Shown here one piece after another: positions 30,001 through 33,000 of a DNA stretch of 64,000 bases. Where the stretch lies: NCBI RefSeq assembly GCF_054482525.1, contig NZ_CM137006.1; one strand, written 5' to 3'. The position numbers were made by a program. The first letter of the stretch is position 1; the number at the start of each line of letters is the position of its first letter.

Positions 30001-33000
30001 CTCGGTTTCACCGACCACATGAACCTGATAGCTATGACGGGCATTCAGGGCATCAAGTACCACCTGATTGATATCGGCAAACGTCAGTTGGATACCCGCG
30101 TCTGCCAGCAGTTTACCGATAAAGCCACGACCGATATTACCTGCGCCAAAATGTAATGCTTTCATAGTATTAACCTTCATCAATGTTTTTACCCGAGAGG
30201 GCTGGGGTGAGGCTTTTCCCTCACCCAAACCCTCTCCGTGAGGAGAGGGGCCGCGCCGGATGCGGCGTAAACGCTTTATCCGGCCTACAAGAACGTGCAA
30301 ATTCAACAAACTGCGCTTTGTTTTGTAGGCCTGATAAGCGTAGCGCATCAGGCAATAAGCCCCACCTTCTCCATGTGGAGAGGTGGGATTGGATTACTTA
30401 CGACCTGCCAGCAGTTCCAGCACTTCATCCACGCTGGTGGTGTGTGCCAGACGCTCGATGACGGATTCATCATCCAGTGCATTGGTCAGGCTGGTGATAA
30501 CCTGAATGTGCTCGTTGTTACGGGCAGCAATACCAATCACCAGACGGGCAATGTCATCTTCTTCTTCACCGAAGCGCACGCCTTCCGGGTACTGGCAGAA
30601 CACCACGCCCGTTTTGAGTACGCGATCTTTCGCTTCAACCGTACCGTGTGGCACCGCGATAGACTCACCCAGATAAGTCGGGGTCAGTTTTTCACGATCC
30701 AGCATCGCCTGAACGTATTCTGGCTCAACGTAACCGCCTTTCACCAGCTGCTCGCCAGCAAAACGAATCGCTTCTTCTTTGGTTGCCGCTTTGCGACCGA
30801 GGAAGATGTTCTCCGCGCCCAGTTTGAACAGGTTAGCACTGGAATCGTCAAAGCTGTCTTTCAGACTGTCTTTCACTTTTACTTCGTTTTCAGTATGGCG
30901 CTGGGCAGCAACCAGACGTTCGGTCAGGCTGGTGTACAAGCCGCTGTCGAGGAAGTTGGTCAGCGAAATATGCTGTGCCTGCGGAACCTGGCGCATAGCG
31001 CGTTCGGTCAGGTCACGGTGAGTGATGACCAGGTCCACATCTGGCGGCAGGTTGTTGATCGCGCTGTTAGTAACAGAAATCTGCGACAGACCTGCATCCT
31101 GAATTTTCTTACGCAGCACACCTGCGCCCATCGCACTGGAACCCATACCGGCGTCACAGGCAACGATGATTTTACGTACGTGGCTCAGGTCGTTAGTCAC
31201 ATCGCCCGCAGACAGCGGGGACGCACCTTTAGACTCAGCTTTCATGTCCTGCATACGACGAGTTGCTGCTTCAATATCATCTTCTTCTTTCACTTTGCTG
31301 GTTTTCAGCAGAATGGCAGAGACAACGAAGGAGACAGCCATCGCCGCACACACACCCGCGATGTTAGCGAAATAAGCACCTTTTGGTGTCATCGCCAGTA
31401 CCGCAAGGATAGAACCCGGAGATGCCGGAGAAACCAGACCACCGCCCAGGATAGTCAGCGTGAACACGCCAGTCATACCGCCGAGAATAACGGCCAGAAT
31501 CAGACGTGGATTCATCAGCACATACGGGAAGTAGATTTCGTGGATACCGCCCAGGAAGTGGATGATTGCCGCACCGCCCGCAGACTGTTTAGCGCTACCA
31601 CGACCAAAGAACATGTACGCCAGCAGCACGCCCATACCCGGACCTGGGTTAGCTTCAATCAGGAAGAAGATGGATTTACCCAGTTCATGGGACTGCTGAA
31701 TACCCAGCGGCGAGAAGATACCGTGGTTAATGGCGTTGTTGAGGAACAGGATTTTCGCCGGTTCAACAAAGATAGACGCCAGCGGCAGCATGTCATGGAC
31801 AACCATGAAGTTAACGCCCGCAGCCAGCATTTTGGACAGGGCTTCAACAATCGGGCCAATGCCGAGGAATGCCAGAATAGCGAGGATCATCCCGATGATG
31901 CCTGCGGAGAAGTTATTCACCAGCATCTCAAAACCGGATTTGATCTTACCGTCTACCCAGCGGTCGAAGTGCTTAATGCACCAGCCGCCCAGCGGACCTG
32001 CAATCATCGAACCGAGGAACATCGGCATATCTGCGCCGACGATAACGCCCATGGTGGTGATGGCACCGACTACACCGCCACGTTCGCCGCCTACCAGCTT
32101 ACCACCGGTATAACCGATCAGCAGCGGCAGGAGATAAGTGATCATCGGCCCGACCAGCTTCGCCAGCGTTTCGTTCGGTAACCACCCTGTTGGAATAAAT
32201 AACGCGGTGATGATACCCCACGCGATAAACGCGCCGATATTTGGCATCACCATGTTGCTGAGGAAACGACCAAAGCTTTGCACTTTGATCTTAATATCGG
32301 ATGACATAAAAACACCCCTTCTTATGTTTGCTGTCGCGCAGGCTGGAAGCCCGAGGTTTTTTGTTAATGTGGCGGCAGAGGTAGCCGGACCTTGTAGATA
32401 CTGCGAAATCTGGCACTGAATCGGTTAACTGTCCAGTCGACGGCCTTTTGTGTGATATCGGTCACATAAATATAGGGGGTAGAGAGGTAATTGACGTGAT
32501 GCTCATCACAAAACGCTTGTGTAAAAAAGCAACAAGGCGGCGATTTTCGCTAAAAATGGCATTTAAATGTGAGTAATGTCACATTTTTGTTTTGTTGGTT
32601 TGTTGAATCTTTGTGATCTGAATCACAAGATATTTTCTTACGACGTTCACCTGATGTGATCTGCAGCATGTTATGCCCTCGTCATAAAATCGTTATGTAA
32701 CTAAGCAACTCATCACCTCTAAAAATTATTCTTTGGTGTTATGGCGAGAATCGCGAACCCGAATTATTGTCAAAATATCAGCCTGACTCCCTTCTGGCTG
32801 CCAGCCAAAAAACAACACTGATAAACGTGAATCCGAGGCAGATATGTTTCTAAACTATTTCGCGTTGGGAGTGCTGATCTTCGTCTTTCTGGTGATTTTT
32901 TATGGAATCATCGCGATACATGACATCCCTTATCTGATTGCCAAAAAGCGCAACCATCCCCATGCCGACGCTATTCATACGGCGGGCTGGGTGAGCCTGT

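What the first reader, a model, noticed from the sequence alone, without database searches (positions are those of the whole stretch)
32445..32670. Dense cluster of consensus CRP sites upstream of mtlA
Three perfect TGTGA-N6-TCACA palindromes and at least two imperfect ones occur within about 220 bp upstream of mtlA. This agrees with the strongly cAMP-CRP-dependent mtl promoter, but the number of perfect sites is striking and could also serve the divergent yibI-yibH unit.
Basis: partly seen in the sequence, partly recalled or inferred. Interest (0 to 1): 0.25.

Follow-up and report, generated by a model that had tools for sequence, protein, structure and literature searches.

The report
Known five-site CRP operator of mtlADR
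This is the well-studied control region of the E. coli mannitol operon, where five binding sites for the sugar-starvation regulator CRP switch the operon on and give its repressor MtlR something to hold on to; it is real and strongly conserved, but already described.

Summary
Window 32445-32670 holds three perfect TGTGA-N6-TCACA cores (32451, 32568, 32612), one site with 1 mismatch (32495) and one with 3 mismatches (32655). The three perfect cores are the only ones in the 64 kb window (0.05 expected).

The window is E. coli chromosome, with mtlA on the minus strand. The site centres are 44, 73, 44 and 43 bp apart. This matches exactly the published CRP5 to CRP1 sites of the mtlADR operator at -58.5, -102.5, -175.5, -219.5 and -262.5 (Ramseier & Saier 1995; RegulonDB; Lee et al., NAR 2026).

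A matrix built from independent ChIP-seq sites ranks CRP2, 5, 4 and 3 as the four best hits in the window. Published ChIP-seq and SELEX show CRP bound here.

The 44-73-44 geometry is identical in the E. coli window and 30 other Enterobacterales species, always with mtlR downstream. It is absent upstream of mtlA in all 29 Firmicutes loci. Only 5 of the 30 species have yibIH next to mtlA, so the array belongs to mtlADR, not to yibIH.

The number and spacing of the sites now have a published explanation. CRP2, 4 and 5 are essential for activation, and pairs of CRP dimers 43-46 bp apart anchor MtlR, a repressor with no DNA-binding domain.

Verdict: already known, low interest. Whether CRP controls yibI remains untested.

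The parts
32451..32466 (.). CRP5. Perfect core TGTGATATCGGTCACA, centre at -58.5 from the mtlA start site. This is the promoter-proximal, Class I-like site.
   Evidence: 18.4 bits, rank 2. Spacing matches PMC13421365. In the ETEC ChIP-seq peak assigned to mtlA. Half-sites invariant in 9 E. coli haplotypes.
32495..32510 (.). CRP4. CGTGATGCTCATCACA (9 of 10 core bases), centre at -102.5, 44 bp from CRP5.
   Evidence: 16.8 bits, rank 3.. ChIP-seq.
32568..32583 (.). CRP3. Perfect core TGTGAGTAATGTCACA, centre at -175.5, 73 bp from CRP4.
   Evidence: 15.2 bits, rank 4.. RegulonDB entry quoted.
32612..32627 (.). CRP2. Perfect core TGTGATCTGAATCACA, centre at -219.5, 44 bp from CRP3. Essential for activation according to the literature.
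   Evidence: 19.7 bits, rank 1.. ChIP-seq.
32655..32670 (.). CRP1. Weak site TGTGATCTGCAGCATG (7 of 10 core bases), centre at -262.5, 43 bp from CRP2. Dispensable according to the literature.
   Evidence: 9.85 bits, rank 9. (7 of 10 bases, poorly occupied, mutant behaves like wild type). Conserved only in relatives close to E. coli.
32430..32435 (-). mtlA promoter -35 hexamer, TGGACA.
   Evidence: Read. CTGGACAG is conserved in Enterobacteriaceae. Position agrees with the published start site.
32407..32415 (-). Extended -10 element, TG-C-CAGATT.
   Evidence: Read. GTGCCAGATT / GTGGTAGAGT is conserved within 1 bp of the same register in the 31-sequence alignment.
32400..32400 (-). Inferred mtlADR transcription start, within about 2 nt.
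   Evidence: Inferred: placing CRP5 at -58.5 gives 32400, which is 7 nt after the -10 hexamer. The start site itself was not measured here.
32414..32429 (.). Cra (FruR)-like operator CACTGAATCGGTTAAC, in the spacer between -35 and -10.
   Evidence: Read. It matches the FruR consensus as I recall it (my own knowledge). Cra repression of mtlA by binding at the core promoter is reported in PMC5888115. Conserved in Enterobacteriaceae only.
32308..32400 (-). mtlA 5' untranslated region, 93 nt.
   Evidence: Core promoter plus 5' UTR (32308-32450) has 1 segregating site of 143; the 93-nt UTR itself has none among 9 E. coli haplotypes. No Rfam match.
30394..32307 (-). mtlA, the mannitol PTS enzyme IICBA.
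29017..30165 (-). mtlD, mannitol-1-phosphate 5-dehydrogenase.
   Evidence: tblastn: 98.7% identity to K-12 MtlD.
28430..29017 (-). mtlR, the repressor without a DNA-binding domain that docks on paired CRP dimers.
   Evidence: tblastn: 100% identity to K-12 MtlR. Function from PMC13421365.
32519..32534 (-). Conserved block TGTTGCTTTTTTACAC inside the 73-bp gap between CRP3 and CRP4. No factor assigned.
   Evidence: Raised column conservation across the 31-sequence alignment.
32599..32603 (-). Conserved ACAAA, 8-12 bp downstream of CRP2 on the mtlA strand. No factor assigned.
   Evidence: nearly invariant columns.
32630..32635 (-). Conserved AAATAT, 3-8 bp upstream of CRP2 on the mtlA strand. 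No factor assigned.
   Evidence: nearly invariant columns.
32737..32745 (+). Candidate extended -10 of yibI (TG-T-TATGGC). Speculative, and not shown to belong to the CRP system.
   Evidence: Conserved in the 6 sequences with yibI beside mtlA (the window plus 5 species). Its distance to the CRP1 centre varies from 75 to 81 bp.
32844..34345 (+). Divergent neighbours yibI (32844-33206, DUF3302) and yibH (33209-34345, HlyD-family). Shown as context, not as demonstrated targets.
   Evidence: Next to mtlA in only 5 of the 30 other species that carry the array.

Best explanation
The cluster is the operator of the mtlADR mannitol operon, which is transcribed leftwards on the minus strand from about 32400. 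Five cAMP-CRP dimer sites lie at -58.5, -102.5, -175.5, -219.5 and -262.5. Four are near-consensus and one is weak.

When cAMP is high, CRP fills CRP2-5. CRP5 sits in a Class I-like position next to RNA polymerase at a weak promoter (-35 TGGACA, extended -10 TG-n-CAGATT). CRP2 and CRP4, far upstream, are also needed, probably by shaping the DNA (inferred).

The 43-44 bp centre-to-centre spacing of the pairs CRP4/5, CRP2/3 and CRP1/2 sets two DNA-bound CRP dimers at the relative angle that one MtlR dimer can bridge. MtlR has no DNA-binding domain, so this is how it represses the operon when mannitol is absent. When mannitol is transported, dephosphorylated enzyme II(Mtl) pulls MtlR to the membrane and the operon is induced. 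With glucose present, dephosphorylated HPr releases MtlR from EII(Mtl) and repression returns. Cra adds a repressor site inside the core promoter.

Shown here: the sites, their strength, their exact geometry and its conservation. Taken from the literature: CRP occupancy, the start site and MtlR bridging. Still inferred by everyone: how the upstream sites activate transcription and how bound MtlR blocks it.
For: Sequence and statistics.

Locus identity: E. coli mtlA-yibI spacer, present in 5404 of 5426 complete genomes. It has no indels and 12 substitutions against MG1655, none in a half-site.

Geometry: spacings of 44, 73, 44 and 43 bp equal the published CRP5 to CRP1 positions.

CRP binding, from the literature: two ChIP-seq peaks in ETEC listing CRP2+CRP1 and CRP5+CRP4. 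The spacer was the second most abundant SELEX clone, with 38 clones. It was the top PhyloScan prediction.

Function, from the literature: EMSAs show MtlR binds only when two CRP sites are 43-46 bp apart. Chromosomal mutants of CRP2, CRP4 or CRP5 lose expression.

My comparative test: 44-73-44 is identical in the 31 aligned sequences (the E. coli window plus 30 other Enterobacterales species) and 44-72-44 in two more. It is 45-73/74-43/44 in Aeromonas, Tolumonas, Photobacterium and Zobellella. In Orbales and Pasteurellales the array is reduced: Gilliamella and the Orbaceae show only a 44-bp pair, and the one Pasteurellales locus (L045) shows three sites spaced 40 and 44 bp. No locus in the 29 Firmicutes has more than one weak site. 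The distance from CRP5 to the ATG varies from 145 to 282 bp while CRP2 to CRP5 stays at 161 bp. Half-sites carry 1.82 bits per column, against 0.55 for the N6 centres and 0.60 for the DNA between sites. mtlR follows mtlD in every species that has the array.

Within E. coli (9 haplotypes): half-sites 0 of 50 segregating, against 53 of 342 fourfold-degenerate sites of mtlA. There are no indels.
Against: Nothing here measures binding or transcription. Occupancy, the start site and the MtlR bridge all rest on published work. The bridging model rests mainly on one 2026 paper, chiefly in vitro EMSAs and AlphaFold models.

CRP5 at -58.5 is 3 bp off the canonical Class I position of -61.5.

This strain differs from K-12 at 6 positions in the N6 centres of CRP1, 3, 4 and 5, so affinities may differ somewhat.

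The strictly conserved 73-bp gap and three conserved blocks that are not CRP sites are not explained by the model.

V. splendidus-type MtlR does not bind despite conserved spacing, so 44-bp spacing can persist without the bridge.
Confidence: 0.92

Rival explanations
1. The region is bidirectional. The distal sites (CRP1, CRP2) also activate a divergent yibI-yibH promoter, so part of the reason for five sites is control of two transcription units.
For: yibI starts 181 bp from the CRP1 centre. A ChIP-seq table assigns the CRP2+CRP1 peak to yibI, and Shimada 2011 notes that both flanking genes lie downstream of the bound spacer. The TGTGATC half-site of CRP1 and a TG-n-TATGGC motif are conserved in all 6 sequences with yibI beside mtlA (the window plus 5 species). 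A yibI promoter fragment is induced in urine relative to LB in uropathogenic E. coli.
Against: The CRP2-5 array is unchanged in 25 species where yibIH is not next to mtlA. In several of these the upstream gene runs in the same direction as mtlA, so there is no divergent promoter to serve. CRP1 also occurs in species without yibI, such as Cedecea. It is weak, poorly occupied and dispensable. The distance from CRP1 to the conserved motif varies from 75 to 81 bp and would place CRP1 near -89, off the Class I phase. One natural isolate carries an IS21 element between CRP2 and CRP1. The ChIP assignment was made by proximity only. No crp-dependent expression data for yibI were found.
Confidence: 0.15
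2. The sites form an ordinary additive multi-site CRP activation module (Class III). The repeated 44-bp spacing only reflects CRP-CRP or DNA-bending requirements and has nothing to do with MtlR.
For: CRP2, 4 and 5 are each required for activation. The 44-bp spacing is kept in V. splendidus and V. ezurae, whose MtlR does not form the ternary complex. The 73-bp gap, equal to 7 helical turns, is just as strictly conserved yet does not support MtlR binding.
Against: Published EMSAs show MtlR supershifts only with two CRP dimers 43-46 bp apart. The property can be transferred to malK by stretching a 34-bp spacing to 44 bp. mtlR co-occurs with the array in every species examined.
Confidence: 0.08
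3. The cluster is a chance grouping of palindromes or a copy of a repeated or mobile sequence, with no regulatory role.
For: None beyond the fact that short palindromes do occur by chance.
Against: 0.05 perfect sites are expected in 64 kb and 3 are seen within 177 bp. The region is single-copy in nearly all 5404 genomes that carry it (median 1 place per genome, at most 2). Half-sites are invariant while flanking bases vary across 31 species.
Confidence: 0.01

Closest known systems
E. coli K-12 mtlADR operator: five CRP sites (Ramseier & Saier 1995, Microbiology 141:1901; RegulonDB) and the MtlR-CRP-DNA bridging model (Lee et al., NAR 2026, PMC13421365)
   Same: It is the same locus. The window is 98% identical to MG1655 with no indels. 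Site positions, half-sites and the downstream mtlR gene are identical.
   Different: Only strain-level substitutions: 6 in the N6 centres of CRP1, 3, 4 and 5, and 6 elsewhere in the spacer. In this strain CRP5 reads TGTGACCGATATCACA, against TGTGATTGATATCACA in K-12.
CytR-CRP repression complexes (deoP2, cdd, udp)
   Same: A repressor is held at the promoter by protein-protein contact with two DNA-bound CRP dimers, so the activator's own sites become the repression platform (comparison drawn in PMC13421365).
   Different: CytR has its own DNA-binding domain and operator between the CRP sites, and the sites are about 52-53 bp apart (my own knowledge). MtlR has no DNA-binding domain and needs 43-46 bp.
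malEp-malKp divergent region with several CRP sites
   Same: Three to four CRP sites in one intergenic spacer build a higher-order activating nucleoprotein complex. That region is truly bidirectional.
   Different: The CRP spacing there is 34 bp and does not recruit MtlR unless stretched to 44 bp. It also needs MalT. For mtlA/yibI, bidirectional use is not shown.
Mannitol operators of Salmonella and Vibrio cholerae
   Same: Adjacent CRP pairs 43-44 bp apart, with MtlR bridging confirmed in vitro for both.
   Different: Vibrionales in my sample keep only part of the array, with spacings such as 117+43 or 51+44. V. cholerae adds the antisense sRNA MtlS (PMC6597380).

Membership tests
CRP-binding sites of the mtlADR operator (Class III CRP-dependent promoter) | Match to the CRP core TGTGA-N6-TCACA at a strength typical of sites bound in vivo | tested here: met
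   Core matches of 10/10, 10/10, 10/10, 9/10 and 7/10. Matrix scores are 19.7, 18.4, 15.2, 16.8 and 9.85 bits, against a training median of 12.9 and a 10th percentile of 8.1.
CRP-binding sites of the mtlADR operator (Class III CRP-dependent promoter) | Orthology with the characterised K-12 operator, with the same positions relative to the mtlA start site | tested here: met
   Ungapped 98% identity to MG1655. Centres are spaced 44/73/44/43 bp, equal to the published -58.5 to -262.5 positions.
CRP-binding sites of the mtlADR operator (Class III CRP-dependent promoter) | A sigma-70 promoter downstream at the right distance | tested here: met
   TGGACA, 17 bp, TG-n-CAGATT ends 7 nt before the implied start at 32400. 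The motif is conserved. The generic scan missed it because the -10 matches only 3 of 6 bases, as expected for an activator-dependent promoter.
CRP-binding sites of the mtlADR operator (Class III CRP-dependent promoter) | Physical occupancy by cAMP-CRP and CRP-dependent transcription | not testable with these tools
   Literature only: ChIP-seq, SELEX, EMSAs and chromosomal site mutants.
MtlR-CRP-DNA bridging operator | Adjacent CRP sites 43-46 bp apart, centre to centre | tested here: met
   44 bp (CRP5-4), 44 bp (CRP3-2) and 43 bp (CRP2-1). The first two values are kept in all 31 aligned Enterobacterales sequences, the window plus 30 species.
MtlR-CRP-DNA bridging operator | An mtlR gene of the type without a DNA-binding domain in the same operon | tested here: met
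   Window 28430-29017 encodes a protein 100% identical to K-12 MtlR. mtlR follows mtlD in every species with the array.
MtlR-CRP-DNA bridging operator | Formation of the ternary MtlR-CRP-DNA complex and spacing-dependent repression | not testable with these tools
   Literature only.
Bidirectional CRP-controlled divergent promoter pair (mtlA and yibIH) | The sites are conserved together with the divergent gene | tested here: not met
   The array is present with identical geometry in 25 of the 30 other species, which lack yibIH beside mtlA.
Bidirectional CRP-controlled divergent promoter pair (mtlA and yibIH) | A CRP site at a fixed Class I or Class II distance from a yibI promoter | tested here: inconclusive
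   No yibI start site is available. The only conserved -10-like motif lies 75-81 bp from the CRP1 centre, so the distance is not phase-locked and puts CRP1 near -89.
Bidirectional CRP-controlled divergent promoter pair (mtlA and yibIH) | CRP-dependent expression of yibI or yibH | not testable with these tools
   No data found in the searched literature.

The most novel reading that the evidence does not exclude
The operator may be a fixed-geometry nucleoprotein assembly with a component not yet identified. The CRP3-CRP4 linker is exactly 73 bp (7 helical turns) in the 31 aligned Enterobacterales sequences (the window plus 30 species) and 72 bp in two more. Three blocks that are not CRP sites are as conserved as some half-site positions: TGTTGyTTTTTTACAC in the linker, and AAATAT and ACAAA flanking CRP2. 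None of this is needed by the published MtlR-bridging model. These elements could be contacts for a further architectural protein, or the determinants of a CRP3-CRP4 loop. Either would explain why the far-upstream CRP2 and CRP4 are indispensable for activation. Separately, CRP1 and CRP2 could also feed the yibIH promoter in the Escherichia-Citrobacter clade.
Probability: 0.25. Interest if true: 0.35.

Novelty: already known. Interest (0 to 1): 0.1.

Why it matters
As a discovery it matters little. The five CRP sites were footprinted in 1995, are listed in RegulonDB, appear in ChIP-seq and SELEX data, and had their number and spacing explained mechanistically in 2026.

The value of this check is threefold. 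It closes the finding as correctly observed and correctly attributed to mtlA. It shows across 30 further Enterobacterales species that the array follows mtlADR/mtlR and not yibIH. It also extends the published four-species operator comparison, showing that the 73-bp gap and three unassigned blocks are as strictly conserved as the 44-bp spacings.

If those blocks proved to be contacts for another factor, this would sharpen the open question of how far-upstream CRP sites activate this promoter.

Tried and rejected
1. Hypervariable centres of the CRP sites. Against K-12, 6 of 12 spacer substitutions fall in the 30 N6 bases. Close species pairs also showed N6 diverging 2-4 times faster than the DNA between sites. 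With a proper neutral yardstick the effect fades. Window against K-12: N6 6/30 against fourfold-degenerate sites 480/4435, p = 0.10. Nine E. coli haplotypes: N6 8/30 against mtlA plus yibI fourfold-degenerate sites 58/393, p = 0.077. The N6 bases look roughly neutral and their surroundings look constrained. I do not claim hypervariability. N6 variants are not reverse complements of each other, so this is not spacer flipping.

2. A structured RNA in the invariant 93-nt mtlA 5' UTR. There is no Rfam hit. The folding energy z-score is -0.47. RNAalifold finds only a 4-bp CCUC:GGGG pairing without covariation. Two hairpins seem to persist by eye in both clades, but this has no formal support.

3. 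A sixth CRP site in the 73-bp gap. The conserved T-tract block matches at most 6 of 10 core bases by eye and is not among the top matrix hits.

4. The generic sigma-70 scan found neither the mtlA promoter nor a yibI promoter. Its one hit (32301-32328, + strand) starts at the mtlA start codon, runs into the mtlA 5' UTR and is at chance level.

5. The promoter hexamers printed for yibIH and mtlA in PMC3946193 could not be located in the spacer, so I ignored them.

6. The second DFI insert in PMC5404293 begins 144 bp upstream of yibI and so lacks all CRP sites. The listed coordinates may be sequence reads rather than whole inserts, so I did not use this as evidence.

7. Supplementary expression tables for crp mutants were not held, and the Thomason start-site paper was not available.
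Full report
**Observation**

Reading window 32100-33000 and searching for TGTGANNNNNNTCACA confirms three perfect palindromic cores: 32451-32466, 32568-32583 and 32612-32627. They are the only three in the 64 kb window. Dinucleotide-preserving shuffles give 0.05 on average and never reach 3.

Allowing mismatches adds CGTGATGCTCATCACA at 32495-32510. TGTGATCTGCAGCATG at 32655-32670 has one perfect half-site and 3 mismatches in the other. Sites with up to 2 mismatches are not enriched across the window (21 against 26 expected). The signal is therefore a local cluster of exceptionally strong sites.

**Matrix test**

I built a symmetric matrix from 103 CRP sites listed in a ChIP-seq study of ETEC H10407 (PMC4287617), leaving out the four mtl/yibI sites.

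| Site | Score (bits) | Rank in window |
|---|---|---|
| CRP2 | 19.7 | 1 |
| CRP5 | 18.4 | 2 |
| CRP4 | 16.8 | 3 |
| CRP3 | 15.2 | 4 |
| CRP1 | 9.85 | 9 |

CRP1 still falls within the range of sites bound in vivo (training 10th percentile 8.1 bits). Four hits reach 14 bits, against 0.47 in Markov simulations with a maximum of 2. Only 6 of the 103 ChIP sites have a perfect core, so three perfect cores in one spacer is unusual.

**Locus**

The spacer is 100% identical to several E. coli genomes and is present once in 5404 of 5426 complete genomes. The flanking genes are mtlA (minus strand, 30394-32307) and yibI (plus strand, 32844-33206), followed by yibH. mtlD (29017-30165) and mtlR (28430-29017, 100% identical to K-12 MtlR) lie downstream of mtlA.

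Against MG1655 the 570-bp spacer aligns without any gap and has 12 substitutions. None falls in a half-site.

**Mapping onto what is known**

The site centres are at 32458.5, 32502.5, 32575.5, 32619.5 and 32662.5, which is 44, 73, 44 and 43 bp apart. Lee et al. (NAR 2026, PMC13421365) give CRP5 to CRP1 at -58.5, -102.5, -175.5, -219.5 and -262.5, with the same spacings. They credit the sites to Ramseier & Saier 1995. The RegulonDB entries reproduced in a supplement of PMC3105977 list the same sequences for mtlADR; the passages retrieved show the sites at -261.5, -219.5, -175.5 and -102.5.

Placing CRP5 at -58.5 puts the start site at 32400 on the minus strand. That is exactly 7 nt after an extended -10 (TG-C-CAGATT, 32415-32407) and 17 bp from a -35 TGGACA (32435-32430).

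A sequence matching the Cra/FruR operator as I remember it (CACTGAATCGGTTAAC, 32414-32429) fills the promoter spacer. This agrees with reported Cra repression at the core promoter (PMC5888115).

**Published binding data**

- ChIP-seq in ETEC gives two CRP peaks in this spacer. One lists CRP2+CRP1 and is labelled yibI. The other lists CRP5+CRP4 and is labelled mtlA.
- The spacer was the second most abundant clone (38 clones) in cAMP-CRP genomic SELEX.
- It was the top-ranked CRP prediction of PhyloScan.

**Comparative test**

A scan of one genome per species with MtlA residues 1-350 returned 80 loci. Counting core matches upstream of mtlA gave the following.

| Group | Spacing of the CRP array |
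|---|---|
| E. coli window plus 30 other Enterobacterales species | exactly 44-73-44 |
| Erwinia persicina, Providencia vermicola | 44-72-44 |
| Aeromonas, Tolumonas, Photobacterium, Zobellella | 45-73/74-43/44 |
| Gilliamella and Orbaceae (Orbales) | only a 44-bp pair |
| Cricetibacter (Pasteurellales, L045) | three sites spaced 40 and 44 bp |
| 29 Firmicutes loci, which lack CRP | no locus with more than one weak (8 of 10) match |

Indels are frequent just outside the array. The distance from CRP5 to the ATG ranges from 145 to 282 bp, and 5' UTR lengths run from 87 to 224 nt. CRP2 to CRP5 nevertheless stays at 161 bp.

In an ungapped 31-sequence alignment (the window plus 30 species), half-sites carry 1.82 bits per column. 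The N6 centres carry 0.55, the DNA between sites 0.60 and CRP1 0.35. CRP1 is kept only in relatives close to E. coli, which fits its reported dispensability.

The published paper compared operators in only four other species. This broader sample confirms and extends that comparison.

**Within E. coli**

Nine haplotypes taken evenly down the identity ranking show no indel.

| Class of site | Segregating sites |
|---|---|
| CRP half-sites | 0 of 50 |
| Core promoter plus 5' UTR | 1 of 143 |
| DNA between sites | 13 of 140 |
| N6 centres | 8 of 30 |
| Fourfold-degenerate sites of mtlA | 53 of 342 |

The half-sites, the core promoter and the UTR are therefore under strong purifying selection. The N6 centres behave about neutrally.

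**The yibI question**

yibIH sits next to mtlA only in Escherichia, two Citrobacter species, Pseudocitrobacter and Leclercia, which is 5 of the 30 other species with the array. Elsewhere the upstream neighbour is a yibF-like glutathione transferase, a lipoprotein gene running in the same direction as mtlA, or something else. The array is unchanged in all of them, and mtlR is always present.

In the six sequences with yibI beside mtlA (the window plus five species), the CRP1 half-site TGTGATC and a TG-n-TATGGC motif (window 32737-32745) are conserved. Their separation varies from 75 to 81 bp and would place CRP1 near -89, which is off the Class I phase.

CRP1 is weak, is left unoccupied when CRP2 and CRP3 are present, and its chromosomal mutant behaves like wild type for mtl expression. 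One chicken isolate carries an IS21-family element between CRP2 and CRP1.

yibI is induced in urine relative to LB in uropathogenic E. coli, but nothing links this to CRP. No expression data for yibI or yibH in crp mutants were found. The array is clearly maintained for mtlADR. Opportunistic use by yibIH is neither supported nor excluded.

**Mechanism**

The published work, together with the geometry verified here, gives the best explanation.

- cAMP-CRP fills CRP2-5. CRP5 acts next to RNA polymerase, and CRP2 and CRP4 are also essential.
- MtlR has no DNA-binding domain. It bridges two CRP dimers only when their sites are 43-46 bp apart, and represses the operon in the absence of mannitol.
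- HPr competes for MtlR and restores repression when glucose is present.

Two things remain inferred: how remote sites activate transcription, and how bound MtlR blocks it.

**Unexplained points**

- The 73-bp gap is as strictly conserved as the 44-bp spacings, although that pair does not bind MtlR.
- Three blocks that are not CRP sites are strongly conserved: AAATAT at 32630-32635, ACAAA at 32599-32603, and TGTTGyTTTTTTACAC at 32519-32534.
- Fis is reported to act on the region, but I could not place its sites.

**Verdict**

The feature is already known in detail, and the yibIH idea is unsupported. Interest is low.

Noticed in passing
window 32519-32534, 32599-32603, 32630-32635: Three short blocks that are not CRP sites are nearly as conserved as the half-sites across the 31-sequence Enterobacterales alignment. 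They are TGTTGyTTTTTTACAC in the 73-bp gap, and ACAAA and AAATAT flanking CRP2. No factor is assigned. Fis is said to bind the region, but its positions were not available.
   Followed up: partly
window 32456-32461, 32500-32505, 32573-32578, 32660-32665: The N6 centres of the CRP sites hold 6 of the 12 spacer differences from K-12 and 8 of 30 segregating sites among 9 E. coli haplotypes. That is about 1.8 times the density at fourfold-degenerate sites of mtlA, but it is not significant (p = 0.077 to 0.10).
   Followed up: yes
window 32308-32450 (minus strand): The mtlA core promoter and 93-nt 5' UTR are almost invariant in E. coli (1 of 143 segregating), and the first 233 nt of mtlA have no fourfold-degenerate-site polymorphism. 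There is no Rfam hit, no significant folding and no covariation. A conserved CCUC could pair with the Shine-Dalgarno GGGG.
   Followed up: partly
L089 (E. coli GPEC1054, NZ_CM142793.1), equivalent to window ~32642: An IS21-family element (istA/istB) is inserted between CRP2 and CRP1. It separates CRP1 and yibI from the rest of the mtl operator in a natural chicken isolate.
   Followed up: no
mtlA/yibI intergenic region (literature, PMC7858067): A 1-bp insertion in this spacer became fixed in a lineage during 1,200-day stationary-phase evolution. Its position is not given. MtlR binding depends on spacing, so it could matter.
   Followed up: no
window 32737-32745 (+): TG-n-TATGGC is conserved upstream of yibI in all six sequences with yibI beside mtlA (the window plus five species). 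It is a candidate extended -10 for the uncharacterised yibIH promoter.
   Followed up: partly
L090 16106-16429 and 14964-16100 (K-12 yiaW-yiaV): K-12 carries a paralogous pair of a DUF3302 protein and a membrane-fusion protein (yiaW-yiaV) about 16 kb from yibI-yibH. These two genes did not align without gaps to the window. I did not check whether they are absent or merely contain indels.
   Followed up: no
window 32429-32443 (+): A terminator-like hairpin followed by a T-run lies on the strand opposite to mtlA and overlaps the mtlA -35. The count is at the level expected by chance (1 found, 0.6 expected).
   Followed up: no
window 33394-33409 and 33427-33442: Two moderate CRP-matrix hits (12.1 and 9.7 bits) lie inside the yibH coding sequence. 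They were not examined further.
   Followed up: no
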